64,000 bases of DNA from Candidatus Enterousia sp. (GCA_045539815.1 JAZQGC010000002.1:11794-75793), one strand, 5' to 3'. Positions 31,085-46,570 are shown, counted from the first letter of the stretch. The notes: generated by a model from the sequence alone, not told the origin. Translations and numbers: made by a program.

Positions 31085-32185
31085 TTAATCTGCTAAATAA
31101 CATTCTTCGTCACAATATTCCGTCTCTGCATTAAAGTAACAATCCCCCGCTGACTTGCCGTCTACTGATTGCAAACTCCAAAATCCTGTATCATCTTCAC
31201 CAGACTTAGCACCATCATGCTTCTTATAACAATCGTTTTTCGTTCTCTCTTCATAATACGTTCTATTACAATTGGCTATATCTTTTGATTCTAATTTCTT
31301 TATGCTAATTTGATTAGAAGTATAACTGTCATATATGTATATATAATCTGGTACAAATAAAGATTTAGCAGAACCTAATTCCCCATTACCGCACTTATAC
31401 TTCTTAAAAGAAAATGCTTTTGAATCCTGTTGTACAAAACCATTGTCGTCACAAGATATACCGCCGCCTTTTGCAGTATAATTTATTTTGCCTTCCTCAT
31501 CCTTATACACTGGCACAAAATAGTTGGAAGGGGAATTATTTTTGTCTTCATACTGATATTTTACTACCCAATGATTCACTTTATTATCACCATTACCCAA
31601 ATCTGCAAATGCAATACACAAATCTTCAAGCCGCTCAGACCAATATACATTACGCTCTACAGATTCATTCTCATCATAACATAAACCACCCCCTTCGGTT
31701 GAATCCCAACACATTGCAGCTTGTTGTTCCGCCATAATATATGAACCATCCTCAAAATTCACGGAATCAGTATTATCTAAAAACACCATTGCATTATTAT
31801 TTGGATGAATATTTTGTACTCTACATGACGAGGATTCATACACATATTCACCATACTGCGTATTATTACAACATCTACTACCGCCCTGCGTCCCCCCAAA
31901 ACTTAAACAACTTGGTACGCAATGTCCACAATTTGAGGGAGGACTTGAACTGCTATCTATATAAAGAGTTGTTTCACTCCCATAAAAATCTTGATATTTT
32001 GCTCCTGGCAAGCTGTCAATTACATCTTTATAAGTAGTATTTTCTCTACACGGGTAATAAGACAACGTATCTTCTATGTCTTCGAAATAGTCAATTTGAG
32101 TATTTTGTTGCCAATAAGATGAAGATGTTTTAACAAAACCAAACAAAACAAAAAATACAACCAACACACGGGTTAATTTGTGCAT
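31085..32185 (-). CDS. secreted Cys-rich protein, CYY-E C-terminal family (large member)
   Basis: Signal peptide VVFFVLFGFVKTSSS. The C-terminus DDTGFWSLQSVDGKSAGDCYFNAETEYCDEECYLAD aligns to the 42797 gene C-terminus. Confidence 0.7.
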   Translation of the reverse strand: MHKLTRVLVVFFVLFGFVKTSSSYWQQNTQIDYFEDIEDTLSYYPCRENTTYKDVIDSLPGAKYQDFYGSETTLYIDSSSSPPSNCGHCVPSCLSFGGTQGGSRCCNNTQYGEYVYESSSCRVQNIHPNNNAMVFLDNTDSVNFEDGSYIMAEQQAAMCWDSTEGGGLCYDENESVERNVYWSERLEDLCIAFADLGNGDNKVNHWVVKYQYEDKNNSPSNYFVPVYKDEEGKINYTAKGGGISCDDNGFVQQDSKAFSFKKYKCGNGELGSAKSLFVPDYIYIYDSYTSNQISIKKLESKDIANCNRTYYEERTKNDCYKKHDGAKSGEDDTGFWSLQSVDGKSAGDCYFNAETEYCDEECYLAD

Positions 32186-35392: not shown

Positions 35393-35424
35393 AAAAATAA
35401 AAAACCCGCATTTGCGGGTTTTTT
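35393..35424. terminator. bidirectional terminator
   Basis: A-run, AACCCGCatttGCGGGTT, then T-run. Confidence 0.75.
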
Positions 35425-35938
35425 ATTTTTGATAATCGTTGTACTTAAACCATTTCCAACTATCTTCAATCTTATACTTACGCCAATCCTTTTGCACATC
35501 TACTTCTGATTCATAAACAATCTTTTCTTTTGGAATTATTATTGGTTTTGCACGAATTTCTTTATCATATATCAGCTTCACAGAATATTTTACATACGGA
35601 CAAAACGCAGGCAAAATATATTGTATTGTAATCACCTGTGGCGACAATTTTACACCATTGTGCGCCAAACAACCGCTTACCGCATCACCGCGTTTGCTGA
35701 CATCCGAAGAATAGCATTTGCATTTTCTGGTTTCTTTATCCAAATGATCACACGCAATTGTTGTTAACCAAATCAAACCATCTTCATCCATTACTTTTAC
35801 AAAACAGCATGTACCGCATTGCTTGCACAGATTTTCCCATTTTGGACTGTACGGTACTATACACCCCTTGCCATCTTTGTTATCCTTGCACCCTTTACAA
35901 CTTTTTTTGCAATCAGGCGCATAACTATATTTTTTCAT
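35423..35938 (-). CDS. YkgJ-family (UPF0153) CxxCxxCC zinc/iron-sulfur cluster protein
   Basis: CKQCGTCCF motif plus additional conserved Cys residues. Confidence 0.7.
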   Translation of the reverse strand: MKKYSYAPDCKKSCKGCKDNKDGKGCIVPYSPKWENLCKQCGTCCFVKVMDEDGLIWLTTIACDHLDKETRKCKCYSSDVSKRGDAVSGCLAHNGVKLSPQVITIQYILPAFCPYVKYSVKLIYDKEIRAKPIIIPKEKIVYESEVDVQKDWRKYKIEDSWKWFKYNDYQK

Positions 35939-36016
35939 AAAAAGCCTCTTTTTTTTTACACACTACAATATAATACATATTATCATTTTGTCAATATCAG
36001 ATTAATAAAAAAATTT

Positions 36017-36045
36017 ATCCCCGACATAAAATCGGGGATTTTTTT
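36017..36045. terminator. terminator hairpin downstream of leuS
   Basis: ATCCCCGacataaaatCGGGGAT flanked by an A-run and a T-run. Confidence 0.55.
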
Positions 36046-36053
36046 ACAACCAA

Positions 36054-38450
36054 TTACTTCTTTACAACAAAGTTCACCAACTTTTTCGGCACAACAATTG
36101 TTTTGATGATTTCAACACCATCCAATTTTGCACCTGTGGCTTCTTTTGCCGCATCAATAATCGCTGTTTCATCTGCATCGGTGGCGACAACAAATTCTGC
36201 TGCACGTTTACCGTTAATTGACGCAACAATTGTCATTTGCGTCTCAACCAGCTTTGACGCATCAAATGTTGGCCACGGTTCAAATACCAGCATATCATCA
36301 TGCCCCAGTTTTTCCCACATTTCTTCGGTTAAATGCGGTGCAAATGGATTCAATATCTGCAACAGTGTTTCATACGCAGGGCGGGGCATTTTACCACCAA
36401 ACGCATTGATATATTCCATCATTGCAGAAATTGTGGTATTAAATTTCATTTCTTCCAAACGCTGTGTTGCATCGGCAATCAGTTTATGTTGCAAACGTTC
36501 TTGTTCTGCGGTCATTGGCTCATCTGTCAGATTATCCGACAAATTTTCCACACGTTTCAAGAAACGTTGCACACCAGCCAGCGCCCCATCAGTCCATATC
36601 GTGTTATTTTCCCACGGCCCTAACGACAACACCGCAACACGTCCAGCGTCCGCACCAACACTTTCAACCAAATCAGCGACCATAAATCCGTTACCGCGTG
36701 ACTTGGACATTTTAAACCCATCGTTACCCATTAACAACCCCTGGGCGGTTCGTTTTGCATATGGTTCTGGCGTATTTACCAATCCCAAATCATACAAAGC
36801 ATGATGCCAGAAACGCGAATAAATCAAGTGTCTGGTATTGTGTTCATGCCCACCATTATAATGCGTTACCGGCATCCATTTTTCCATCTGTTCACGCGAA
36901 CAGAATTCATCATTGTTTTTCGGGTCCAGATAACGCAAGAAATACCACGAAGACCCCGCCCATCCCGGCATTGTATCTGTTTCGCGTTTTGCCGGCGCGC
37001 CACAATGCGGACAGGTTGTATTTACCCAATCTGTTGCACGTGCCAATGGACCTTCGCCATCATCTGTTGGACGATAATCAGACATATATGGTTGCATCAG
37101 TGGCAATTCAGAATCCGGCACAGGTACCCAACCACATTTTTCACAATGCACCATTGGGATTGGTTCGCCCCAGTACATTTGACGCGAAAATCCCCAGTCT
37201 TTTAATTTATATTTTGTTGTTCCGCGTGCAAAGCCATGTTCAGAACCGTATTTAATTGCGGCTGCAATCGCATCATCTTTACCCATACCATCCAAGAAAG
37301 AAGAGTTTATATGTACACCATCACCTTCCCAGACTTTTCCTTCTTCACCGCCCGCCAGAACAGGGATAATATCCAGTCCAAACTTTTTCGCAAAGTCCCA
37401 ATCACGACCATCATGTGCCGGCACCGCCATAATCGTACCATACGCATAATCCACCAAGACATAATCTGATGTAAACACTGGAATTTCAGTTCCCGTGAAC
37501 GGATTTACCGCCATAATTCCATCCAAACGCACACCGGTCTTTTCTTTTGTTGCATCTGTTCGTTCAATTTCAGATTTTGATGCAGATTCCTTGATATAAG
37601 AACGCACATCATCTGCGTTTTTAATTTTGCCTTCATCCAGCCATTTTTTTACCAACGCGTGTTCTGGCGCAATAACACAGAAGGTTACACCGAATATAGT
37701 ATCAACACGTGTTGTATAAACAGTCATAACATCATCGCCAACCATAAAATCAACATCCGCACCATGGGATTTACCAATCAGATTTATTTCGTCTTTTTTA
37801 ATACGTTCATCAAAATCAACATCTTTCAATCCGTCCAGCAATTTATCTGCATACTTTGACAACGCCAGGTTCCACTGTAACTTTTCTTTTTTTTCAATTG
37901 CCCCATGACAGCGTGGACATTTATTATCTTCCAATTCTTCGTTTGTAAATGTTGTTCTGCAATCGGGACACCAGTTCATTGGCAACGCAGACTTATACGC
38001 CAACCCCGCTTTCCAGAATTGAATAAACATCCACTGGGTCCACTTGATATATTCCGGATCAGACGTTGAAACGCGTGTTTCCGGGCTGACAGACCAACCA
38101 ACACGATCTATCATTTCAGAATAACTTTTAGTTAATTCAGCGGCAACATCGGCAGGATGCTTACCAATTTTTGTTGCATAATGTTCGCCTGCGATTCCCA
38201 TTGCGTCAAACCCCATTGGGAACAACACATCAAAACCGCGCGCACGACGAAATCGCGCCAACACATCGATACCAGAATAATTCAACATATGTCCTGCATG
38301 CATACCCGCCCCAGACAAAAACGGAAATTCTACCAACGTATAAAACCTTGTTTTTGAACCATCATTTTTTGGCACAAACGCACGTGCATCTGCCCATTTT
38401 TTTTGCCATTTTGCTTCGCGTTCATGAATTCTTTTGATATCATCTGCCAT
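36054..38450 (-). CDS. leuS: leucyl-tRNA synthetase
   Basis: A HIGH-like motif (AGMHAGH), KMSKS (FKMSKSRGN) and a CP1 editing domain. Start chosen at MADDIKRIHEREAKWQKKW. Confidence 0.95.
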   Translation of the reverse strand: MADDIKRIHEREAKWQKKWADARAFVPKNDGSKTRFYTLVEFPFLSGAGMHAGHMLNYSGIDVLARFRRARGFDVLFPMGFDAMGIAGEHYATKIGKHPADVAAELTKSYSEMIDRVGWSVSPETRVSTSDPEYIKWTQWMFIQFWKAGLAYKSALPMNWCPDCRTTFTNEELEDNKCPRCHGAIEKKEKLQWNLALSKYADKLLDGLKDVDFDERIKKDEINLIGKSHGADVDFMVGDDVMTVYTTRVDTIFGVTFCVIAPEHALVKKWLDEGKIKNADDVRSYIKESASKSEIERTDATKEKTGVRLDGIMAVNPFTGTEIPVFTSDYVLVDYAYGTIMAVPAHDGRDWDFAKKFGLDIIPVLAGGEEGKVWEGDGVHINSSFLDGMGKDDAIAAAIKYGSEHGFARGTTKYKLKDWGFSRQMYWGEPIPMVHCEKCGWVPVPDSELPLMQPYMSDYRPTDDGEGPLARATDWVNTTCPHCGAPAKRETDTMPGWAGSSWYFLRYLDPKNNDEFCSREQMEKWMPVTHYNGGHEHNTRHLIYSRFWHHALYDLGLVNTPEPYAKRTAQGLLMGNDGFKMSKSRGNGFMVADLVESVGADAGRVAVLSLGPWENNTIWTDGALAGVQRFLKRVENLSDNLTDEPMTAEQERLQHKLIADATQRLEEMKFNTTISAMMEYINAFGGKMPRPAYETLLQILNPFAPHLTEEMWEKLGHDDMLVFEPWPTFDASKLVETQMTIVASINGKRAAEFVVATDADETAIIDAAKEATGAKLDGVEIIKTIVVPKKLVNFVVKK

Positions 38451-38539
38451 TTTTTCAACCTTTTTGATTAAATTTACGGGCACACTGTAATAATAAAACG
38501 GTTTTAATTCAAGTTTTTTATACACCTAAAAAAAGCAAA

Positions 38540-38568
38540 TTGACACCCACAGATAAAAATGCAATAAT
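38540..38568 (+). promoter_or_regulatory. sigma70-like promoter, TTGACA-17-AATAAT
   Basis: TTGACA at 38540-45 and AATAAT at 38563-68. Homologous to the promoter at 40139. Confidence 0.5.
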
Positions 38569-38607
38569 CACAACCGATATATCGACGTAACAGGGGGAAG
38601 CGTTCAT

Positions 38608-39318
38608 ATGAACAAAATAAATAAGCTATTATGGGGAATATTAAGTCTTGGCATCAGCCTTATTTATCGTACAAATGTAGATGCGGCCCACTATACAGAT
38701 ACAAACGCAATAACAAACCCTGCTGTCGGCGACACAATCACTATCGGCTGCGATTTTGGCAATATTGTACTATCACTTGTGTACGCATTTAATCACGCAG
38801 CCAACACAACAAGTGACATTCCACGTGAAGAAAATTGCGTATACCTTGACGAGTATATATGCAACACAACCGCAACTTACACAAGCATGTGCAATTCTTT
38901 TAATCACACGGCAATACCAAAACACTCATCAGCTGTTAATCCATCTGATTTCACATGCAGCACATTAACCTGTCCAAACGGTGGCACATTGGGGCAACGT
39001 GCCGTACTTCAAACTGAGACATTAAATCTAACCAAAAACAGCAATTGTCACCGATATTACACTGGCGGCACTGGTCATCGCTACATTGGCTTTTCTTTTG
39101 TAATCAGTGCAATCACTGCCAGTTCTGGCTGGTACGGCAGCTATAGCAAATTCAACGGCACCAAGGATTGGATATATCAACAATACAGCATTTATTGGCA
39201 ACGCGTTAACAACAATTCTATAAACGATTGTTATCTTGCGCCGGGCACATATACCGACAGCAACGGCAACACATACACCCAAACCGATTCCGACAACAAA
39301 TGCTATTACCAGGAATAA
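38608..39318 (+). CDS. secreted Cys-rich protein, CYY-E family (tandem paralog 1)
   Basis: Conserved leader MNKINKLLWGILSLGISLIYRTNVDA, YTGGTGH motif, and a C-terminus ending CYYQE. Confidence 0.7.
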   Translation: MNKINKLLWGILSLGISLIYRTNVDAAHYTDTNAITNPAVGDTITIGCDFGNIVLSLVYAFNHAANTTSDIPREENCVYLDEYICNTTATYTSMCNSFNHTAIPKHSSAVNPSDFTCSTLTCPNGGTLGQRAVLQTETLNLTKNSNCHRYYTGGTGHRYIGFSFVISAITASSGWYGSYSKFNGTKDWIYQQYSIYWQRVNNNSINDCYLAPGTYTDSNGNTYTQTDSDNKCYYQE

Positions 39319-39330
39319 GGAAACCGCACA

Positions 39331-40128
39331 ATGAATAAACTGAATAAAGTTTTATGGGGAATCATCAGCGGATTTATATCCGTCGTGTATAACTTCAATG
39401 CACATGCACACGACTGCATACTCCATGAAATCGAGAGAATTGCCATCGACTGCGACTCTTCCAATTATGGCAGAAAATGTCCTGACGAACAATTGTCCAA
39501 CCCGACATATAAGAATGAAGCCTTTAGTACTCTGTTGAACACAATTATATATTCTGGGTATTACAACGTTAATGGTGGCGACGAAACACCTGTATATTGG
39601 TTTGCTGACAGTAATTATATTGATGACATATTAGATGCATTCAACACACAAAACGAATGGGTAAATGGTCGCCAATCCATCGCAGTCGATATCGACCATG
39701 AATTTGTCACAAACAGAACATATAACGGGAACATCGATTACGGTTCTTACTGCAACGCGGACTCTGAACAAAGTTGCAGTGGCAAAATAACAAATTGCCC
39801 CAGTCATACAGCCGGTATTCTGGCCAAATATACAACGACGGCATGGGTCGACAACGATGTTATTGAATATATATTGGGGGATTACAATCTGCGCAAAAAC
39901 CCCCAGGGCTATAATAACACCGACAACCCTTTATATGTATTTAACAACATATCATCTGCCATTGCGATTATGACAGTAAAAAATATCAACGATTGCAAAT
40001 ATTTTTATTCATACAGCGGAAAAAAAGCAACCGCATGTCGGGTTGCTCCGACCAGAGAATACAACGGTTCGGATACACGTGGACGATACGCAATCCCGGC
40101 AAACGACACCTGTTATTACGAATATTAA
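39331..40128 (+). CDS. secreted Cys-rich protein, CYY-E family (tandem paralog 2)
   Basis: Leader MNKLNKVLWGIISGFISVVYNFNAHA, C-terminus CYYEY, and the same AAGGAAACCGCACAATGAA 5' junction as paralog 3. Confidence 0.7.
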   Translation: MNKLNKVLWGIISGFISVVYNFNAHAHDCILHEIERIAIDCDSSNYGRKCPDEQLSNPTYKNEAFSTLLNTIIYSGYYNVNGGDETPVYWFADSNYIDDILDAFNTQNEWVNGRQSIAVDIDHEFVTNRTYNGNIDYGSYCNADSEQSCSGKITNCPSHTAGILAKYTTTAWVDNDVIEYILGDYNLRKNPQGYNNTDNPLYVFNNISSAIAIMTVKNINDCKYFYSYSGKKATACRVAPTREYNGSDTRGRYAIPANDTCYYEY

Positions 40129-40138
40129 ACCAACCAGA

Positions 40139-40167
40139 TTGACAACACATGCAAAAATTGCAACAAT
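40139..40167 (+). promoter_or_regulatory. sigma70-like promoter, TTGACA-17-AACAAT
   Basis: TTGACA at 40139-44 and AACAAT at 40162-67, followed by an A9 tract (40180-40188) and an AAGGA SD. Confidence 0.45.
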
Positions 40168-40200
40168 CGTAACGGTTGTAAAAAAAAAGGAAACCGCACA

Positions 40201-40911
40201 ATGAACAGACTGAATAAACTTTTATGGGGCATTCTAAGCTTTGGCATCAGCCTTGTTTATCGCGCAAACACAACAAACGCCAGCATATTCAGCGGTCTTA
40301 CCACTTTTGGCAACGGTAATGTCGGCGACACTATAACAGAATCATGTGACGAAATATTTGGCACAGGAATATTAAAATTCGAAATAATTGAGGCCACCGA
40401 AACAACAACCGAACCAACAAACACGACAAAATGCAGCGACCTGCCAGAATATTGTGACGAGATAACCAGCGAATACAACTATGATTTAGAAGCTTACAAA
40501 ACAAATTCCTATGGATGTGAATATGGCGATTTTCTTAATCTGGTAAATTATCGATATTGCGAGTCATGCCCTGGTGTCGGTTCAACAGACCAATCGCCAC
40601 TCTTTGACTGGTACAAAATATCCCTGGAAGACATCATTTGTTACAGCGAATACACCGGTGGCACGGGGCACGTATTCCGAAAATACAAAATTGGGCTGAT
40701 TGGGACAGACGTTGACCCCGACCCTGAAAGCACCGTTTTAACGGTCGTCAACGGCCGCAAATGCACAACAGAATATTCCAGTTGCGTCGGTTCCATTGAA
40801 TGGTTGGATGTAACTTATACCCCAGACAAAACAGATTGCCGCATATCTGTTAACGCAGGGACCGACGGACGCGGACACTACAAACAAAGATATTGTTATT
40901 ACGAAGAATAA
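40201..40911 (+). CDS. secreted Cys-rich protein, CYY-E family (tandem paralog 3)
   Basis: Leader MNRLNKLLWGILSFGISLVYRANTTNA, YTGGTGH motif, and C-terminus CYYEE. Confidence 0.7.
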   Translation: MNRLNKLLWGILSFGISLVYRANTTNASIFSGLTTFGNGNVGDTITESCDEIFGTGILKFEIIEATETTTEPTNTTKCSDLPEYCDEITSEYNYDLEAYKTNSYGCEYGDFLNLVNYRYCESCPGVGSTDQSPLFDWYKISLEDIICYSEYTGGTGHVFRKYKIGLIGTDVDPDPESTVLTVVNGRKCTTEYSSCVGSIEWLDVTYTPDKTDCRISVNAGTDGRGHYKQRYCYYEE

Positions 40912-40932
40912 AACAAATAAAAACGATTGAAC

Positions 40933-41898
40933 ATGACCAAAAAAACAGAACAAAACACACCAGATATTTCAATAATTATACCAAACCGCAATTATTCGCA
41001 CTATATTGCCGACGCACTGAATTCTGTTTTGCATCAGACTTTTCAGAATTGGGAATGTATTGTGATTGACGATGCCAGCACCGATGACAGCGTATCTGTT
41101 ATTCAAAAATTTGTGGATTCTGATCCGCGTTTCAGACTGTTTCGCAACAAAAAAACATTGGGCACATCTGCGTCCCGTAACATCGGGCTGGACAACGCGC
41201 GTGGGACATATATTGCATTTTTGGATTCCGACGATTCATACACGCAAAACGCATTGGAAACATTGTTCAAATTGGCACAACAGACCAGGGCGCCAATGGT
41301 TGGCGGACACGCCAATATTGTTCCTGTTTCATTTAAATACATCCCGCAAGAGCAAGTACCCATCGCAGACACAAACAATTTCAAAACCATCTATAACCCG
41401 GTAGTATTATTACAGGCCAACCAGAATCATAAATGGTGCTGGATATGGCGTCGCATATATCATCGTGCCTTGATTGGCGATGTTCGTTTTTCAACAAAAT
41501 TCACATCACTGGGCGAAGATTTGGCATTTATGATGGATATTTTATACAGATCGCACCCAACGATTGAAACGCCGGTACCGGTTGTTAATCATCGATATCA
41601 CGATGAAGCAATGACCAATTTGAACAAGCTGGATGAAACATATTTTGACTGGTTTCCGCACTATTTTGAACACCTGCGCGATAACAGTTTGGACAAATAC
41701 GACGCTGAATTTCTGCGTCAAACATATCGTGCAGCGTTTGCATATTTGTTAATGGAAACAATATCACGCCCGCGTAAGTTTAACAAATTACAGATGCAGG
41801 CACGCGCAGTTCTGATTAAATCTTGCAAATTAATTCCGCGTCGTTATCTGACGCGCAAACAACGCTTTTTATGCTGGTTTTTGACATGTCTAAAGTAA
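40933..41898 (+). CDS. family 2 glycosyltransferase
   Basis: ISIIIPNRN...VIDDASTDDS and LDSDD motifs. Confidence 0.85.
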   Translation: MTKKTEQNTPDISIIIPNRNYSHYIADALNSVLHQTFQNWECIVIDDASTDDSVSVIQKFVDSDPRFRLFRNKKTLGTSASRNIGLDNARGTYIAFLDSDDSYTQNALETLFKLAQQTRAPMVGGHANIVPVSFKYIPQEQVPIADTNNFKTIYNPVVLLQANQNHKWCWIWRRIYHRALIGDVRFSTKFTSLGEDLAFMMDILYRSHPTIETPVPVVNHRYHDEAMTNLNKLDETYFDWFPHYFEHLRDNSLDKYDAEFLRQTYRAAFAYLLMETISRPRKFNKLQMQARAVLIKSCKLIPRRYLTRKQRFLCWFLTCLK

Positions 41899-42821
41899 AT
41901 GTATTATATTGTTTTGACAGTAAATTTTGGCGCATGGCGGCGGTTTCCATTGGTTCAATAATGAAAAACCGCGACAGCGGCACCAATATAACGGTATACT
42001 GTATGGTTGCGCCGCACACACGTGGCCGTCGCTATATCAATCGTATTGTACGGCGGGGTGGGGGGCGTTTAGTATGGCGCACAATACATCCGCGTCAAAA
42101 TCCATTTCGCAATCACGACTATTCGCGTTGGTCGCCTGTGATATTTTATCGTCTGTTTGCGCATCGTATTTTCAAGAATCTGGACAAGATATTATATTTG
42201 GATTCTGACACAATCATCCAGACCGATTTAACAAACCTGTACAACACAGATGTACGCGATTACGCAATGGGCGCGATACGCGACATGGCCCCCATACACA
42301 ACCCCAAAGAAAAAAGTGGCCAATATGTTCTTAATTTCAAGCAGAAATATTTAAAGAACGACTTGTATGTAAATTCTGGGGTATTGCTGTTAAACATGAA
42401 CTATATGCGCATTCATGGCGACGAATTGCTGGCGGTTAAGATACCATTAACATACCCCGACCAGGACATTTTAAATGTTGCATTTGATGGAAAAATACTG
42501 GAATTACCATTGCGTTATAACTGCGTACCGGACATGGGGGTTGATATCAAGTTCCCAAAATCAGAATATCTGTATGTAAAAAACAAAATAGAGATTGCAC
42601 ATTTTTACGCGGTAAAGCCATATTATTACCACCACACCCCGCGCAATTCATATGCAATATTCTATCACGCGGCGCGATATGTCGGATTTTATCCAGACGA
42701 ATTCATCAAGGCCGACGAACATCATGCATATCAACAAGAACACAAACGACATCGCACCCAAATACCATTTGTTCGCACGGACAACACCGGACAAATATGG
42801 TTCCTGTGGATGCGGATATAA
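41886..42821 (+). CDS. family 8 glycosyltransferase (LPS/LOS galactosyl- or glucosyltransferase-like)
   Basis: VLYCFDSKFW, YLDSDTII (DxD) and NSGVLLLN motifs. The start overlaps the GT2 stop. Confidence 0.8.
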   Translation: MSKVNVLYCFDSKFWRMAAVSIGSIMKNRDSGTNITVYCMVAPHTRGRRYINRIVRRGGGRLVWRTIHPRQNPFRNHDYSRWSPVIFYRLFAHRIFKNLDKILYLDSDTIIQTDLTNLYNTDVRDYAMGAIRDMAPIHNPKEKSGQYVLNFKQKYLKNDLYVNSGVLLLNMNYMRIHGDELLAVKIPLTYPDQDILNVAFDGKILELPLRYNCVPDMGVDIKFPKSEYLYVKNKIEIAHFYAVKPYYYHHTPRNSYAIFYHAARYVGFYPDEFIKADEHHAYQQEHKRHRTQIPFVRTDNTGQIWFLWMRI

Positions 42822-43939
42822 CCACAGCAACAGGGGACAGGGAACATGCCGGCACAAACAAACAAACAAACAAACAAACAAACAAACGAACAATAGTTAA
42901 ATTTGTTGTTTGTCTTCTTGTTGCTGCATTTCCATTATTTGCATACAGCACAACGCCTTCATTATTGAATTGCTCAACCACGGTTTATATGCACGAAATA
43001 CACCCCGGTGAATCCGGAACAATATACTACAACTCCGGTGCCAACTTGGATTCATATGAAGAATCTTGCGACCACCAAACAAGAATTTCTATAAACCAAT
43101 GCAGAAGAGGATCAAACGGAAGTAGCTGTTATATCAACGATTCAGCAAGTTTTTATTATGCAGAACAATGCCAAGAGCAACCTTGGGACAAATACACAGA
43201 CCTGACAGTATACACTGGCCAACTATCTCCTAAACGTAATCATGATTGGATAAATGGTGTAAATAATTACATAACTTCACAAAAAGCAATATGTTGTGGC
43301 AAGAATTTTGATTATTGTGGCAGCTGTTACAGCAATTATTCTCACACCCATGATGTATATTGGCAATACACAGATTCAGCCATAGTCAACAAATTCAACA
43401 GCATATCCTGGAACGGTGTAAAACATTATTATTTAACAATTGAAGAAAAAATACCGGACTTTATTACATCGAACAAATACTGTTCCGCCGCAAACGATGA
43501 TGGCACCTGTAAAACTTGGGCCACATGTCCAAATGGTGGCAAAGTATATTACCAACAAACCACATATCAATTACAACGCTGTACCAATGAATATGACTGT
43601 GAAGATATTACATCACAAGACGACATTAATAACCATCCTATTTACGAAGCACAATCAGGTAGCACCACCATAGAAGCAACAAAAATTAACGATATAAATT
43701 GCATAAACAAAACCATAGTCGAAGTGAAAACACAAGACGATTGTTATAAAGAATACCTGACCGTAAAACCAAAAAACGATACATTTAATGACGAAAATTC
43801 CAATCAAAAATACGACACAAAAGAAACCTTTACCGATGACACTGGAACATATATTCTGAATGGAAATTATACTGGCAATTGTTTTTACAATGCAGAAGAA
43901 AACTATTGCAGCGAAAACAATTGTTATTTCAGCGACTAA
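42797..43939 (+). CDS. secreted Cys-rich protein, CYY-E family (large member), putatively phase-variable
   Basis: The ORF is in frame from ATG 42797 through the (CAAA)8 tract (TNKQTNKQTNK) into the signal peptide KFVVCLLVAAFPLFAYS. C-terminus CFYNAEENYCSENNCYFSD. Confidence 0.7.
   Translation: MVPVDADITTATGDREHAGTNKQTNKQTNKRTIVKFVVCLLVAAFPLFAYSTTPSLLNCSTTVYMHEIHPGESGTIYYNSGANLDSYEESCDHQTRISINQCRRGSNGSSCYINDSASFYYAEQCQEQPWDKYTDLTVYTGQLSPKRNHDWINGVNNYITSQKAICCGKNFDYCGSCYSNYSHTHDVYWQYTDSAIVNKFNSISWNGVKHYYLTIEEKIPDFITSNKYCSAANDDGTCKTWATCPNGGKVYYQQTTYQLQRCTNEYDCEDITSQDDINNHPIYEAQSGSTTIEATKINDINCINKTIVEVKTQDDCYKEYLTVKPKNDTFNDENSNQKYDTKETFTDDTGTYILNGNYTGNCFYNAEENYCSENNCYFSD
42855..42886. repeat. 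perfect tetranucleotide microsatellite (CAAA)8
   Basis: Counted base by base: C at 42855, 59, 63, 67, 71, 75, 79 and 83. It is followed by the degenerate units CGAA and CAAT. Confidence 0.95.
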
Positions 43940-44658
43940 GAACAGTGTCCCTGGCGCACAAAGCACCCCAAGAATTCGGTATTACCACTGCCACCCTGGA
44001 TGGGCGACGGCACAACACCGCAATTTTCAAACCCGTTTTCCGCAAACGCAGACACAACCCTATCAATTGCATATTGATGCCATGCTTGGTCGCGTATAAC
44101 GCCGTTACAACGGGCGGCAATATCACGTGGAACTTCGAACTGTGGTTTTATCAGGGCAACAACATTTTTTGCGCCCCACGGTGGCAAACACCCAACAATA
44201 TTGACCAATGACACAAAAGACACATCAATAACAATCAAATCAACCATTGATAATGGCTGTAATTCACGAATATCCGTCTGTTCCAGTGACACCACCCGAA
44301 CATCTGTGCGTAAATGTGGCGCCAACTGATTTGTACCAACATCAACCGCATACACACGCGCCGCACCACGCGACAGCAAAACATCGGTAAAACCACCAGT
44401 ACTGGCACCAATATCCAAACACGCCATACCATGTGGATTTATATTAAATTCTGTCAATGCATGCGCCAATTTTAAGCTGCCACGCCCAACAGCATAGGGT
44501 AAATCGCCCGCAACAATCGCATCAGATTCAGCCACCGTCATACTGGGCTTTTTCGCAGGCGCGCCGTTTACCGTAACCAAACCGGCACGAATTGCCGCCA
44601 CGGCACGCGCCCGCGTTGAATAAAGACCACGACTAACCAATGCGACATCTAATCTCAT
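43936..44658 (-). CDS. tlyA: TlyA-family rRNA 2'-O-methyltransferase
   Basis: S4 domain MRLDVALVSRGL and FtsJ-like motif CLDIGASTGGFTDVLL. Confidence 0.9.
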   Translation of the reverse strand: MRLDVALVSRGLYSTRARAVAAIRAGLVTVNGAPAKKPSMTVAESDAIVAGDLPYAVGRGSLKLAHALTEFNINPHGMACLDIGASTGGFTDVLLSRGAARVYAVDVGTNQLAPHLRTDVRVVSLEQTDIRELQPLSMVDLIVIDVSFVSLVNIVGCLPPWGAKNVVALIKPQFEVPRDIAARCNGVIRDQAWHQYAIDRVVSAFAENGFENCGVVPSPIQGGSGNTEFLGCFVRQGHCS

Positions 44659-44690
44659 ACACAAAATAATAAATAAAATTTTTAATAAAA

Positions 44691-45221
44691 TCAATCACCA
44701 TAACCAACGGTCGCCAACATACATTGCCATGTTCTGGAACCGTAGTTATCAGTACCATTAACGTCTCTTTTTGATAAATAAGCCGCACAGTTAGCCGCAC
44801 AATTTTCCGAACATTTTTTGTTGTATATATAAAAATAAATCCATCCCGATTCGAACGGGTGTGTCATTTTACACCAACAATATTCACCATCATTACGTCC
44901 ATAAAAATTGTCGTTCACATCACCATTTGATGCAGCGGTTTGCCCCCAATACCCAGATATATAATTCGGTCCTGCACAACTGTGCAGTGGCAAATTCGTT
45001 TTATCCGACTTTAATGTACTGCACGACGCAACGCCACTGACCGCGCCAAAACCATTAATATTTATACGCCAATCAAAACCATCACCCACATATCCGGATG
45101 CGGTTGTGTTTTTGTAATCCGTTCCCAATACAACCTGGTCCGATTTGGCGCAAAATGTCGCACCAGACGCAATCAACGGGCACAACGCAATATATAAAAC
45201 AACCAAAATATTCCTGAACAT
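44691..45221 (-). CDS. secreted Cys-rich protein, CWC family
   Basis: Start at MFRNILVVLYIALCPLIASGA. Motifs GVASCS and YCWCKMTHPFESGWIYF...C...C...CA. Confidence 0.65.
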   Translation of the reverse strand: MFRNILVVLYIALCPLIASGATFCAKSDQVVLGTDYKNTTASGYVGDGFDWRININGFGAVSGVASCSTLKSDKTNLPLHSCAGPNYISGYWGQTAASNGDVNDNFYGRNDGEYCWCKMTHPFESGWIYFYIYNKKCSENCAANCAAYLSKRDVNGTDNYGSRTWQCMLATVGYGD

Positions 45222-45238
45222 CAGTATCCCTTTTGTTA

Positions 45239-45721
45239 TTACCATACTGCTTCGAATAATTTATCCCGAAACGCATAACTGCCCACGACACCATCGGCGC
45301 ACAGGCGCGCACATCCCGACGTACACAAATCCACACTGTCATATGAACGCAAATACATAAAATAACTGGTCGCGGGACGACGCAACGCACACCAACAATG
45401 TGCCCCCATATCATCAGCCGGCACGACCTGATTTCCCGTTACAACCGTATATTGCGCCCCCGCAGAAAATTCACTGCACGACGCAACACCGCGCAAGAAC
45501 CGAAATGTACCGTTCATCGATGACATTGTGTCGTAATCAACGTCAACCCGCCAATTCATACCATCAATCTGGGGCGCGCCATACTTAACAGAATTATCCG
45601 TATCCTTGTCCATCGTAACCACGACCGAAAAATCGGTCTGACACATCACCCCAATTGCCACACCGGGCAGGGCACATAACAACATCATCACACACCAGAT
45701 AAATTTACCTTGTATAATCAT
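45239..45721 (-). CDS. secreted Cys-rich protein, CWC family
   Basis: Signal peptide; motifs RGVASCS and HCWCALRRPATSYFMY...C...C...CA. Confidence 0.65.
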   Translation of the reverse strand: MIIQGKFIWCVMMLLCALPGVAIGVMCQTDFSVVVTMDKDTDNSVKYGAPQIDGMNWRVDVDYDTMSSMNGTFRFLRGVASCSEFSAGAQYTVVTGNQVVPADDMGAHCWCALRRPATSYFMYLRSYDSVDLCTSGCARLCADGVVGSYAFRDKLFEAVW

Positions 45722-45730
45722 TATCGGTCC

Positions 45731-46570
45731 TTATTTTACGGCATGATAAAAATTATCTTCGTACATTATGTTTATGGCGCCTTTGCTTTTTTCCGGCACC
45801 AGATTAACATAACATTGACGATTACCAGACTTAAAGTTTAACGATGGGGTCGTCAATTTTTTTGCATATATCGGGATTACCAAACCACCACCCGTACGCA
45901 AATAACGCATACTGACCCCCGTACTGGTCAACGCGCATAAATTGGCACAATTACCCAAATAGTTCATATCTTGTCCGGCGGCACACAAACGCACCGCCAA
46001 CTTTGTATCCGGCACATCAGTATACGGATACCCATGTATTGATATCAGGCTGTTATCTGTCAAATTCGAACCATCGTATGGCGAAACAAGACGTGTACCC
46101 GACGGACAATCAAGACCATTGGCCACAACACGCATTGAATCATTCGAAAACACATTATTATATCCCGCCGGACAATTTTCTGTATCAGGCGCATACGACA
46201 CACAACCCACACCATCAAAATATCCGTTTTCACACATGGTTACCGGAATTTGATTTAACATATACACCCCAGGCTTACGCATCCGATGCGTGGCCTCTGG
46301 GCATGTACCATCAGTCCGGGGCATACCAATTCCAAACAAATTTACTGTGATATAATTATCGGCACAATAATCATTTGCGACATATTTCTGACATGAATAT
46401 TCAACTGTTTTTGTGGTTGTTTCTGCGGCCTCATCAGTTATTTCTGTAACCGTCATCACCGGATATCCACCATCACACAGCATCATATCGGGCAGGGCGC
46501 CATACACAGTCGCCGAACACATGAACATCATAAAAAATATAAATATCCCCCACATATCGCCATCACGCAT
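45731..46570 (-). CDS. secreted Cys-rich protein with CP[AS]G modules and the TTPSL-type C-terminal domain
   Basis: Signal peptide IFIFFMMFMCSATVYG. C-terminus IPIYAKKLTTPSLNFKSGNRQCYVNLVPEKSKGAINIMYEDNFYHAVK. Confidence 0.65.
   Translation of the reverse strand: MRDGDMWGIFIFFMMFMCSATVYGALPDMMLCDGGYPVMTVTEITDEAAETTTKTVEYSCQKYVANDYCADNYITVNLFGIGMPRTDGTCPEATHRMRKPGVYMLNQIPVTMCENGYFDGVGCVSYAPDTENCPAGYNNVFSNDSMRVVANGLDCPSGTRLVSPYDGSNLTDNSLISIHGYPYTDVPDTKLAVRLCAAGQDMNYLGNCANLCALTSTGVSMRYLRTGGGLVIPIYAKKLTTPSLNFKSGNRQCYVNLVPEKSKGAINIMYEDNFYHAVK

What the first reader, a model, noticed from the sequence alone, without database searches (positions are those of the whole stretch)
38540..43939. Surface-variation island: three tandem CYY-E paralogs with duplicated promoter and leader, two glycosyltransferases, and a phase-variable large paralog
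Between leuS and tlyA lie three tandem genes with near-identical leaders (MN(K/R)(I/L)NK(L/V)LWGI(L/I)S.(G)(I/F)S(L/V)(I/V)Y). Their junction sequences are conserved (AAGGAAACCGCACAATGAA at 39318 and 40188), and paralogs 1 and 3 share YTGGTGH. Their central regions are highly divergent, and all end in CYY-x-E/Y. The promoter upstream of paralog 1 (TTGACA-17-AATAAT) is duplicated in recognisable form upstream of paralog 3 (TTGACA-17-AACAAT).

These genes are followed by overlapping GT2 and GT8 genes and then the (CAAA)8-containing family member. Conserved ends with divergent cores, plus glycosyltransferases and an SSR switch, are the organisation seen in antigenic or phase-variable surface loci such as LOS and adhesin loci of Haemophilus, Neisseria and Campylobacter.
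Basis: partly seen in the sequence, partly recalled or inferred. Interest (0 to 1): 0.6.

Follow-up and report, generated by a model that had tools for sequence, protein, structure and literature searches.

The report
Phase-variable surface-protein island in Enterousia
A tiny-genome, uncultured gut bacterium (Candidatus Enterousia) keeps, between two housekeeping genes, an operon of exported cysteine-rich proteins and two sugar-adding enzymes. Close strains swap, lose and rapidly alter these protein genes, and one of them has a (CAAA)n repeat that switches it on or off, the strategy known from Haemophilus and Neisseria.

Summary
leuS and tlyA flank three tandem genes for exported Cys-rich proteins, then overlapping GT2 and GT8 genes, then a larger Cys-rich gene with (CAAA)8 behind its start codon.

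Nine related assemblies were compared with the window.
- Flanking leuS is 95-99% identical in protein.
- The paralog slots are 24-97% identical, with clean cassette breakpoints.
- Copy number varies: 2-3 small genes and 0-1 large gene.
- Two recently diverged allele pairs have pN/pS of about 3.

The tract is the longest simple repeat in the 947-kb genome. Strains carry 8+1, 13, 15 or at least 14 units. The 13-unit copy is in frame with the SD-preceded ATG (364 aa). The window copy is out of frame, so it is OFF. (CAAA)n of six or more units occurs in 13 of 257 Enterousia species, mostly at or just upstream of gene starts.

- The large gene is only a remote relative of the small ones.
- The in-frame ATG at 42797 is incidental.
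- The glycosyltransferases carry no repeat, but they are linked to these proteins across the genus.

The protein family has no Pfam match, a confident all-beta model with no fold match, and an odd Cys count. Surface exposure and within-population switching are inferred, not shown.

The parts
36054..38525 (-). leuS, the conserved left flank. The start is probably the ATG at 38450, giving 798 aa.
   Evidence: ORF. The 99%-identical ortholog in L009 carries PF00133, PF13603 and PF08264. It is 95-99% identical between strains with pN/pS 0.07.
38540..38568 (+). Promoter-like site TTGACA-17-AATAAT (with TG) upstream of paralog 1.
   Evidence: 11 of 12 matches. This is a prediction only.
38608..39318 (+). 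Small paralog 1, 236 aa: signal peptide, 9 mature Cys, ends CYYQE.
   Evidence: The core 38600-39200 is replaced relative to L009 (57-78% DNA identity) while the flanks are 97-100%. The AF2 model has pLDDT 81.6 and is all-beta. There is no Pfam, NCBIfam, PDB or BFVD match.
39331..40128 (+). Small paralog 2, 265 aa, ends CYYEY. It starts 12 nt after paralog 1, behind the SD AAGGAA.
   Evidence: The slot holds at least 3 allele classes across strains, 28-96% identical. Allele pair L007/L011 has pN/pS 3.5, p=0.012.
40139..40167 (+). Promoter-like site TTGACA-17-AACAAT (with TG) in the spacer before paralog 3. It is a recognisable copy of the paralog-1 promoter.
   Evidence: This is a prediction only.
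40201..40911 (+). Small paralog 3, 236 aa, ends CYYEE.
   Evidence: The slot is absent in L011 and L089, frameshifted in L086, and filled by a paralog-1-like copy in L007.
40933..41898 (+). GT2 glycosyltransferase, 321 aa.
   Evidence: PF00535, E 1.7e-35. The best long NCBIfam match is PRK10073, 101 bits over residues 9-251, below the cutoff. There are two deep allele classes, 80-82% aa with dS above 1. It is linked to family genes across the genus.
41871..42821 (+). GT8 glycosyltransferase, 316 aa from ATG 41871 or 311 aa from ATG 41886. It overlaps the GT2 3' end.
   Evidence: PF01501, E 1.2e-30. The nearest solved structure is LgtC 1g9r, E 9.4e-12. The NCBIfam LPS 3-alpha-galactosyltransferase model scores 49 bits, below the cutoff.
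42832..42848 (+). SD-like AGGGGA (42832-42837) and the true start codon ATG (42846-42848) of the large gene.
   Evidence: Read from the sequence. The orthologous ATG opens a 364-aa ORF in L011.
42855..42890 (+). (CAAA)8 plus one degenerate CGAA unit, in the n-region of the signal peptide. This is the slipped-strand switch.
   Evidence: The same allele has 13, 15 and at least 14 units in other strains.
42846..43939 (+). Large Cys-rich gene (B-type allele), phase-OFF in this assembly. ATG 42846 reads 16 codons to TAG 42894. The body frame (42887-43939) encodes a signal-peptide h-region and a mature part of about 330 aa with 19 Cys.
   Evidence: The whole cassette 42823-43957 is replaced in L009 by an unrelated-core A-type allele. 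It is deleted in L086 and reduced to a remnant in L089.
43936..44694 (-). tlyA-type rRNA methyltransferase, the conserved right flank.
   Evidence: PF01728, E 2.6e-40, and the S4 domain PF01479.
44691..46570 (-). Three further signal-peptide Cys-rich genes: two CWC-motif paralogs and a 279-aa gene. They adjoin the island and are also variable.
   Evidence: The 279-aa gene is either 100% or about 62% identical between strains.

Best explanation
**What it is.** This is a contingency (variation) island of Candidatus Enterousia. One operon encodes Sec-exported, disulfide-rich proteins of a lineage-restricted family, followed by two cytoplasmic Leloir glycosyltransferases (GT2 and GT8) and a larger exported Cys-rich protein.

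**Shown here.**
1. The protein genes turn over between close strains by homologous replacement. The breakpoints lie in the conserved leader, the conserved 3' end or the gene boundaries.
2. Genes are gained, lost and frameshifted.
3. Two recently diverged allele pairs carry a large excess of amino-acid-changing substitutions, while the leader stays under purifying selection.
4. The large gene's B-type allele carries a hypermutable-type (CAAA)n tract between its SD-preceded ATG and the hydrophobic core of its signal peptide. Unit number differs between strains. A total of 3k+1 units gives the full protein, and other counts stop after 16-24 codons. The window copy (8+1 units) is OFF.

**Inferred.**
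- Slipped-strand mispairing changes the tract at high frequency within a population and gives reversible ON/OFF expression.
- The proteins are exposed on or released from the cell. They are selected by an external agent such as phage, host antibody or a partner cell.
- GT2 and GT8 extend a lipid-A-anchored oligosaccharide (LOS type), and this glycan and the proteins form one variable surface.
For: **Organism.** One search identifies a related locus as a Candidatus Enterousia MAG.

**Mosaic variation.**
- leuS is 95-99% identical while the paralog slots are 24-97%.
- DNA against L009 is mostly 94-100% per 100-nt bin, except the paralog-1 core and the whole large gene.
- Copy-number variation, a clean deletion at CAGCAAC/CAGCGAC and a remnant are seen.

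**Selection.**
- The large A-type allele (L009 vs L010) has 87 nonsynonymous and 8 synonymous differences, pN/pS 2.8, Fisher p=0.0012.
- Paralog 2 (L007 vs L011) has 33.5 vs 2.5, pN/pS 3.5, p=0.012.
- leuS has pN/pS 0.07.
- The leader codons show synonymous but few nonsynonymous changes (first bins).

**The repeat.**
- It is a unique outlier in the genome.
- Strain states are 8+1 OFF, 13 ON (364 aa) and 15 OFF, and one scaffold breaks in the tract after 14 units.
- The same unit sits in frame in the leader of a small family member in another species: MAAQTNKQTNKQTNKQLNKILWGI, 9 units.
- Tracts of six or more units occur in 13 of 257 Enterousia species. Ten of the 14 tracts lie in or just upstream of the 5' end of an ORF, and seven of those ORFs begin with a signal peptide.

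**Export.** The h-region is about 14 residues and is followed by A-x-A-type sites such as VDA|A, AHA|H and TNA|S.

**Linkage to the GTs.**

**LOS-type context.** LpxC is present. No Wzy_C/WaaL-PglL family and no Bac_transf family is found. The nearest structure to GT8 is the LOS galactosyltransferase LgtC.

**Comparison system.** In H. influenzae, tetranucleotide SSRs lie just downstream of start codons, and CAAA is a known unit there (PMC2651432).
Against: - Within-population length heterogeneity and switching are therefore not shown, and differences between strains could in principle be slow.
- All sequences are metagenome assemblies. Consensus errors in repeats and strain chimeras in hypervariable stretches are possible. 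Against that, L007/L008 and L087/L088 are independent assemblies that agree.
- Surface location is inferred only from signal peptides. No anchor, lipobox or beta-barrel signal is seen.
- Most allele pairs have saturated dS, so pN/pS is informative for only a few pairs. Only one test (p=0.0012) survives correction for about 13 tests.
- KdtA (PF04413) was not detected, so the LOS pathway is not fully accounted for.
- The GTs carry no SSR.
- The promoter-like sites are not statistically above background.
Confidence: 0.72

Rival explanations
1. The Cys-rich proteins are themselves the acceptors of the co-operonic GT2/GT8. They would be glycosylated in the cytoplasm before Sec export, perhaps guided by the unusually conserved leader and perhaps on the conserved unpaired Cys. 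The island would then encode a variable glycoprotein rather than protein plus LOS.
For: - One to three family genes sit directly upstream of GT2, sometimes with a 4-nt overlap, in about 24 of 29 species loci.
- The leader is conserved at protein level even in single-copy species and despite synonymous divergence.
- 35 of 36 members have an odd number of mature Cys, which implies one unpaired Cys.
- No WaaL/PglL and no initiating phosphoglycosyltransferase is present, so en-bloc routes are excluded.
- From established knowledge, GT2 enzymes of the SunS/GccA kind S-glycosylate Cys. A GT8 extends cytoplasmically added N-linked glucose on Actinobacillus adhesins.
Against: - The GT2 scores 22.7 bits against the SunS family model, whose cutoff is 350 bits. 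It fits generic polysaccharide and LPS GT2 models far better.
- N-x-S/T sequons are not enriched: 71 observed against 66 expected.
- Both GTs end in hydrophobic or aromatic tails, which from established knowledge is typical of membrane-associated lipid-acceptor GTs (sequence).
- No GT41-type N-glycosyltransferase was looked for or seen.
- Glycosylated Sec substrates are rare.
Confidence: 0.12
2. The small exported Cys-rich proteins are diffusible antagonistic peptides or proteins (bacteriocin- or glycocin-like), and they diversify in an arms race with competing strains rather than acting as surface antigens.
For: They are small, secreted, disulfide-rich, hypervariable, under positive selection, and next to a GT2.
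Against: - The locus holds no immunity-like small membrane gene, no ABC or peptidase exporter and no double-glycine leader.
- At 210-330 aa, the mature proteins are far larger than glycocins.
- An ON/OFF SSR switch is typical of surface structures, not of toxins that lack a coupled immunity gene.
Confidence: 0.05
3. The variation is neutral decay. Under this reading these are dispensable periplasmic proteins under relaxed constraint in a shrinking genome, and the repeat is a mutational accident.
For: - Frameshifts occur in L007/L008 (A7 vs A6 run) and in L086 paralog 3, and deletions occur in L086 and L089.
- The window's large gene is out of frame.
Against: - pN/pS is well above 1 in two pairs, not about 1.
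- The Cys framework, leader and C-terminal motif are strictly kept across the genus.
- Intact ORFs persist at 25-70% identity.
- The same CAAA unit recurs near gene 5' ends in 13 species, and the tract is in frame in two family genes.
- The family is maintained next to GT2 in about 24 species loci.
Confidence: 0.06

Closest known systems
Haemophilus influenzae tetranucleotide contingency loci (lic1A, lic2A, lgtC, YadA-like genes; review PMC2651432)
   Same: A perfect tetranucleotide tract lies just downstream of the start codon. Unit number differs between strains and sets the reading frame. The loci concern surface structures. CAAA is itself one of the units recorded there. A GT8 of LgtC type lies in the same locus here.
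   Different: - Here the repeat is in an exported protein of an unknown family, not in the glycosyltransferases.
- The genome has essentially one such tract, whereas H. influenzae has a dozen or more.
- The organism is an uncultured alphaproteobacterium with a 0.95-Mb genome.
- Switching was not measured.
Neisseria Opa proteins (CTCTT repeats in the signal-peptide coding region)
   Same: The repeat sits inside the signal-peptide coding region, so frame changes abolish the exported protein. Both are multigene families with conserved ends and hypervariable parts, reshuffled by recombination (established knowledge).
   Different: - Opa proteins are eight-stranded outer-membrane barrels. The model here is a soluble-looking all-beta, disulfide-rich fold with no structural match.
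- Only one paralog per genome carries the repeat.
- The paralogs are tandem in one operon rather than scattered.
Variable surface protein families of Mycoplasma and Borrelia (Vsp/Vlp, Vsa, Vlh) with a conserved leader and divergent mature part
   Same: These are also small-genome, host-associated bacteria. They have a highly conserved signal sequence, divergent mature domains, tandem paralogs and SSR-based switching in some families (established knowledge; compare PMC5476646, found).
   Different: - Those are lipoproteins with a lipobox, and no lipobox is present here.
- They have no co-operonic glycosyltransferases.
- They have no conserved C-terminal Cys motif.
Lgt-type LOS outer-core glycosyltransferase loci of Neisseria and Haemophilus
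   Same: A GT8 resembling LgtC sits with a GT2. LpxC is present and no O-antigen ligase is found, which is consistent with sequential LOS assembly. Deep allelic classes of the GT pair exist between strains.
   Different: - The scores are far below NCBIfam equivalog cutoffs.
- No SSR lies in the GT genes.
- The acceptor is unknown.
- KdtA was not detected.

Membership tests
SSR-driven contingency locus (translational phase variation) | A perfect short-unit repeat tract far longer than the genome background. | tested here: met
   (CAAA)8 is the longest SSR in 947 kb. All other tetranucleotide runs have 3 units or fewer.
SSR-driven contingency locus (translational phase variation) | The tract lies between the start codon and the functional body, with a unit length that is not a multiple of 3. 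| tested here: met
   ATG 42846, tract 42855-42890, then the signal-peptide h-region.
SSR-driven contingency locus (translational phase variation) | Unit number differs between strains, with both in-frame and out-of-frame states. | tested here: met
   8+1 units OFF, 13 ON (364 aa), 15 OFF, and at least 14 unresolved.
SSR-driven contingency locus (translational phase variation) | Length heterogeneity and reversible switching within one population. | not testable with these tools
Multigene antigenic-variation family (conserved ends, variable core) | Several paralogs share a leader and a C-terminus but have divergent cores. | tested here: met
   Alignments A2 and A3. The invariant residues are leader residues plus C122, C208, G220, C232 and Y234.
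Multigene antigenic-variation family (conserved ends, variable core) | Recombination mosaics with breakpoints in the conserved parts. | tested here: met
   Only the paralog-1 core is replaced relative to L009, and the large-gene cassette is replaced from the GT8 stop to 18 nt after its own stop.
Multigene antigenic-variation family (conserved ends, variable core) | Diversifying selection on the mature part. | tested here: met
   pN/pS 2.8 (p=0.0012) and 3.5 (p=0.012) in two young allele pairs. Other pairs are saturated.
Multigene antigenic-variation family (conserved ends, variable core) | Silent donor cassettes that feed an expression site (pilE/pilS or vlsE type). | tested here: not met
   Every copy has its own SD and start codon. 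The family profile finds no further copies in the genome.
Multigene antigenic-variation family (conserved ends, variable core) | The protein is exposed on the cell surface. | not testable with these tools
   Only Sec-type signal peptides can be read from the sequence.
LOS glycosyltransferase locus (Lgt/Waa type) | GT8 and GT2 catalytic domains. | tested here: met
   PF01501 at E 1.2e-30 and PF00535 at E 1.7e-35.
LOS glycosyltransferase locus (Lgt/Waa type) | Equivalog-level match to a characterised LOS/LPS transferase. | tested here: not met
   49 bits against a cutoff of 461 for the LPS 3-alpha-galactosyltransferase model. LgtC matches at E 9.4e-12 only.
LOS glycosyltransferase locus (Lgt/Waa type) | Lipid A pathway present and O-antigen ligase route absent. 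| tested here: inconclusive
   LpxC is present. Wzy_C and Bac_transf are absent. KdtA N-domain was not found.
Diversity-generating retroelement target | A reverse transcriptase with a template repeat that matches a short variable region at the gene's 3' end. | tested here: not met
   RT genes exist on other contigs. They have no TR/VR pair and no meaningful similarity to the locus. The substitutions are spread over the whole gene.
Glycocin-type S-glycosylated peptides | A SunS-family GT, a double-glycine leader and an ABC exporter. | tested here: not met
   The SunS model scores 22.7 bits against a cutoff of 350. The leader is Sec-type, and no transporter lies in the locus.

The most novel reading that the evidence does not exclude
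The strict genus-wide coupling of these genes to GT2/GT8, the protein-level conservation of their leader and the conserved unpaired cysteine could mean that the proteins are leader-guided substrates of cytoplasmic glycosylation, possibly S-linked, before Sec export. That would be an undescribed type of phase- and allele-variable glycoprotein coat, built on a new all-beta disulfide fold, in a bacterium with a genome under 1 Mb.
Probability: 0.12. Interest if true: 0.8.

Novelty: new member of a known kind. Interest (0 to 1): 0.58.

Why it matters
Candidatus Enterousia (order Rs-D84) is a widespread, uncultured gut lineage with genomes under 1 Mb, and its lifestyle is unknown (PMC12306168). No paper that mentions the genus has a title or listed abstract on phase variation.

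A bacterium that has shed most of its biosynthesis still maintains a hypervariable exported-protein operon under diversifying selection, with a slipped-strand switch. That implies strong, fluctuating pressure on its surface from phage, host immunity or a partner cell. The locus also gives a concrete marker for strain tracking and for testing whether the organism is an epibiont or a parasite.

The work also defines an orphan protein family. Only 17 clusters match it among 1.84 billion representatives. It has a confident model with no known fold relative, and a genus-wide (CAAA)n contingency motif.

Tried and rejected
- **DGR mutagenesis.** Reverse transcriptases exist on contigs C15 and C31. 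They have no template/variable repeat pair and no meaningful similarity to the locus, and the substitutions are spread over whole genes. Rejected.
- **N-glycosylation sequons.** 71 were observed against 66 expected from shuffles. Not enriched.
- **Family assignment of the Cys-rich proteins.** Pfam and NCBIfam gave no match at or above their cut-offs.
- **Fold assignment.** PDB (best E 0.15, TM about 0.1) and the viral library (best E 0.035) gave nothing.
- **En-bloc O-glycosylation or O-antigen route.** No Wzy_C and no Bac_transf was found.
- **ATG 42797 as the real start.** Rejected. It lies inside the GT8 coding sequence without an SD. It is absent in L011, and in L087/L088 it is thrown out of frame by an extra G.
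- **Large gene as a close paralog.** A profile of small paralogs gives hhalign probability 5.9%. Only the C-terminal module and a CPNGG motif are shared.
- **Pattern scans of JGI metagenome contigs.** Two scans for the tract flanks returned nothing.
- **P0009 and P0010 contigs.** They were cut before the repeat.

Full report
**1. What is in the window**

The region between leuS (36054-38525, minus strand) and a tlyA-type methyltransferase gene (43936-44694, minus; PF01728 and S4) holds six plus-strand genes:
- Three tandem ORFs at 38608-39318, 39331-40128 and 40201-40911.
- A GT2 gene at 40933-41898 (PF00535, E 1.7e-35).
- An overlapping GT8 gene ending at 42821 (PF01501, E 1.2e-30).
- A 1.1-kb ORF ending at 43939.

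The three small products share the leader MN(K/R)(I/L)NK(L/V)LWGI..S..IS..Y and end in CYYQE, CYYEY and CYYEE. Paralogs 1 and 3 share YTGGTGH. The junction AAGGAAACCGCACAATGAA precedes paralogs 2 and 3, and the leader DNA forms 56-68-nt repeats at 63-86% identity. The two promoter-like sites are the best-placed matches in the region (11/12 and 10/12, both with a TG extension). The total count of such matches is not above shuffled expectation, so they stay predictions.

(CAAA)8 lies at 42855-42886 and is followed by one degenerate CGAA unit. In the whole 947-kb genome no other tetranucleotide run exceeds three units, and the next longest SSR is (AATCC)4. The tract is therefore not a chance feature.

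**2. Organism**

The window belongs to a 947-kb, 98%-complete genome. The closest named record carrying the locus is a MAG of Candidatus Enterousia sp. (JAZQRR010000018.1). This agrees with earlier notes of this scan. Enterousia belongs to the order Rs-D84 of Alphaproteobacteria. It is an uncultured gut lineage with genomes under 1 Mb and no respiratory chain (PMC12306168).

**3. Comparison across strains**

Exact-protein look-ups and a genome scan retrieved nine related assemblies of the locus: L007/L008, L009, L010, L011, L086, L087/L088 and L089. Gene order is conserved: leuS, small paralogs, GT2, GT8, large gene, tlyA, then three further Cys-rich genes. The contents of the slots are not conserved.

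Protein identity between strains:

| Gene | Identity |
|---|---|
| leuS | 95-99% |
| Paralog 1 | 57-85% |
| Paralog 2 | 28-96% |
| Paralog 3 | 32-96% |
| Large gene | 24-86% |

One paralog-1 pair outside that table, L007 vs L011, is 97% identical.

Against the closest strain (L009), DNA identity per 100-nt bin is mostly 94-100% from 36000 to 42822 and again from 43958 onward. One leuS bin falls to 85%. There are two larger exceptions:
- The core of paralog 1 (38600-39200) is 57-78% identical. Its last 120 nt are 97% identical again.
- The whole large gene (42823-43957) does not align at all.

Copy number also varies:
- L011 and L089 have two small paralogs.
- L086 has lost the large gene by a clean deletion between CAGCAAC and CAGCGAC, and its paralog 3 is frameshifted.
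- L089 retains only a remnant of about 100 nt of the large gene's signal-peptide region.
- The large gene of L007/L008 is split at an A7 run that is A6 in L009.
- In L007 the third slot holds a paralog-1-like copy with a paralog-2-like tail, so sequence also moves between slots.

**4. Selection**

Most allele classes are so old that synonymous sites are saturated. Two young pairs are informative:
- The A-type large gene (L009 vs L010) has 87 nonsynonymous and 8 synonymous differences (pN/pS 2.8, one-sided Fisher p=0.0012).
- Paralog 2 (L007 vs L011) has 33.5 against 2.5 (pN/pS 3.5, p=0.012).
- For comparison, leuS gives pN/pS 0.07.

The changes are spread over the whole mature protein. The first 30 codons, which encode the leader, show synonymous but almost no nonsynonymous change. 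The leader is therefore kept by purifying selection on the peptide and not only by recent gene conversion. Only the first test survives a correction for the roughly 13 comparisons made.

GT2, GT8 and the 279-aa minus-strand gene also fall into two deep allele classes: 76-82% and about 62% identity with dS of about 1-2, against dS 0.3-0.4 for leuS. The island as a whole is therefore exchanged between lineages.

**5. The repeat switch**

The large gene occurs as two alleles with unrelated cores.
- **A-type** (L007-L010) starts with the family leader MN(K/R)TKRILWGI and has no repeat.
- **B-type** (window, L011, L087, L088) starts at an ATG preceded by AGGGGA, then runs into (CAAA)n, then into TIVKF(V/I)VCL(L/I)VAAFPLFA, the hydrophobic core of a signal peptide.

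Strain states of the B-type allele:

| Assembly | Units | State from the SD-preceded ATG |
|---|---|---|
| L011 | 13 | In frame, 364-aa ORF |
| Window | 8 perfect + 1 degenerate | Stops after 16 codons (TAG 42894) |
| L088 | 15 | Stops after 24 codons |
| L087 | at least 14 | Scaffold breaks in the tract |

The ORF listed from ATG 42797 is in frame in the window only by accident. That ATG is part of the GT8 codons ...Q-I-W-F... and has no SD. It is absent in L011. In L087/L088 an extra G (GGGGG instead of GGGG) puts it out of frame. The window copy is therefore best read as phase-OFF.

In a different Enterousia species (G062) a small family member next to leuS carries (CAAA)9 in frame at the same place: MAAQTNKQTNKQTNKQLNKILWGI. 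Tracts of six or more CAAA units occur in 13 of 257 Enterousia species genomes, almost always at one place per genome and with 6-25 units. Ten of the 14 tracts lie in or just upstream of the 5' end of an ORF, and seven of those ORFs begin with a signal peptide. CAAA thus looks like the genus's contingency unit.

This matches the rule described for H. influenzae. There, tetranucleotide SSRs lie just downstream of start codons, and CAAA is one of the recorded units (PMC2651432). What is missing is read-level evidence of length heterogeneity within a population.

**6. The proteins**

A profile of the family finds only 17 cluster representatives among 1.84 billion proteins. In the own genome it finds only the locus itself. 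There are no Pfam or NCBIfam matches.

With a 23-sequence alignment, AlphaFold2 gives a confident all-beta model for paralog 1 (pLDDT 81.6, pTM 0.70). The model has no match in the PDB or in the viral structure library (best E 0.15 and 0.035, TM about 0.1).

The leader has a hydrophobic core of about 14 residues followed by A-x-A-type sites, so it is a Sec signal peptide. There is no lipobox.

The invariant residues outside the leader are Cys 122, 208 and 232, Gly 220 and Tyr 234. In 35 of 36 members examined the mature protein has an odd number of cysteines: 7, 9, 11, 13 or 19. This implies a conserved unpaired Cys, which I cannot explain.

The (CAAA)8 gene is only a remote relative of the small paralogs:
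- A profile of the small paralogs alone matches it at a C..CPNGG motif only (hhalign probability 5.9%).
- It shares a C-terminal module of about 80 residues (DCY...D.TG.Y...CFYNAEE..C) with the A-type allele (E 2e-5).
- It shares the same module with a bamD-linked gene at 31085-32185 (E 2e-9).

**7. The glycosyltransferases**

The GT2 ortholog is accessory, present in 28 of 101 Enterousia species at E <= 1e-30. In about 24 of 29 such loci the gene or genes directly upstream are Cys-rich proteins with the same kind of leader and a G.(Y/F)....C.Y end. These sometimes overlap GT2 by 4 nt. The gene downstream is a GT8 or a second GT2. The GTs are therefore not unrelated neighbours, and the unit "family gene(s)-GT2-GT8" is conserved.

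Evidence on what the GTs act on:
- The nearest solved structure to GT8 is the LOS galactosyltransferase LgtC (E 9.4e-12).
- The best long NCBIfam match of GT2 is the glycosyltransferase model PRK10073.
- Both scores are far below the equivalog cutoffs.
- The genome has LpxC but no Wzy_C (WaaL/PglL) and no Bac_transf family member. That fits sequential LOS-type assembly and excludes en-bloc O-glycosylation by those families.
- KdtA was not detected, which leaves a gap.
- N-x-S/T sequons are not enriched in the proteins.

I therefore favour an LOS-type glycan as the product. I keep direct protein glycosylation as a minority reading, because of the tight linkage, the conserved leader and the unpaired Cys.

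**8. Alternatives rejected**

A diversity-generating retroelement is not supported. Reverse transcriptases exist on two other contigs, but they have no template/variable repeat pair and no meaningful similarity to the locus. The substitutions are also not confined to a short 3' region.

Neutral decay does not fit pN/pS well above 1, the strictly kept Cys framework and the genus-wide retention.

A bacteriocin reading lacks immunity and export genes.

**9. Verdict**

- The window's switch is OFF.
- The large gene is a remote relative of the small paralogs.
- The GTs carry no repeat.
- Surface exposure and within-population switching are inferred.

The mechanism is a known kind: a slipped-strand contingency locus combined with a recombining multigene family, as in Haemophilus, Neisseria and Mycoplasma. 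It is found here in a lineage and a protein family where it has not been described.

Noticed in passing
window 31085-32185 (-): A 366-aa exported Cys-rich gene directly after bamD shares the C-terminal module of about 80 aa (DCYK...DDTG...CYFNAE.EYC) with the (CAAA)8 gene (BLASTP E 2e-9). It is kept in the related strains.
   Followed up: partly
window 44691-46570 (-): Three further signal-peptide Cys-rich genes lie after tlyA. The first two are paralogs with a CWC motif (E 7e-9). The 279-aa one is either 100% or about 62% identical between strains, so it has deep allele classes. The first gene has clustered nonsynonymous changes against L009 (pN/pS 0.87).
   Followed up: partly
family-wide (window 38608-40911 and relatives): 35 of 36 family members have an odd number of cysteines in the mature protein (7, 9, 11, 13 or 19). 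This implies a conserved unpaired Cys of unknown role.
   Followed up: partly
L026, L027, L033, L035 (other Enterousia species): (CAAA)9-25 tracts lie between a -10-like box and the SD or start codon of other signal-peptide protein genes. One reaches 25 units and ends two bases before the ATG. These are candidate transcriptional or 5'-UTR switches.
   Followed up: no
L036, L037, L038 (other Enterousia species): (CAAA)8-11 tracts lie in frame in the first 10-25 codons of three genes that are not family members and show no obvious signal peptide.
   Followed up: no
L007 14917-14930 and L008 (same site): The A-type large gene is split into 216 + 139 aa at an A7 run that is A6 in L009. Two independent assemblies agree. 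This could be a second, homopolymer-based switch or a pseudogene.
   Followed up: partly
own genome (G000): LpxC is present, but the KdtA/WaaA N-domain (PF04413), Wzy_C (PF04932) and Bac_transf (PF02397) are not detected in a 98%-complete genome.
   Followed up: no
G000 C15:5611-6636 (-) and C31:4955-5743 (-): Two reverse-transcriptase genes (341-343 aa and a 528-aa ORF) occur in a 947-kb genome. There is no template/variable repeat near the first. Their type (retron, group II intron or other) was not determined.
   Followed up: partly
window 35423-35938 (-): A 171-aa YcgN-family cysteine-cluster protein (NCBIfam E 3e-18, below the cutoff) lies between the SPOR/RlpA-like gene and leuS. It is 98% conserved between strains.
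   Followed up: no
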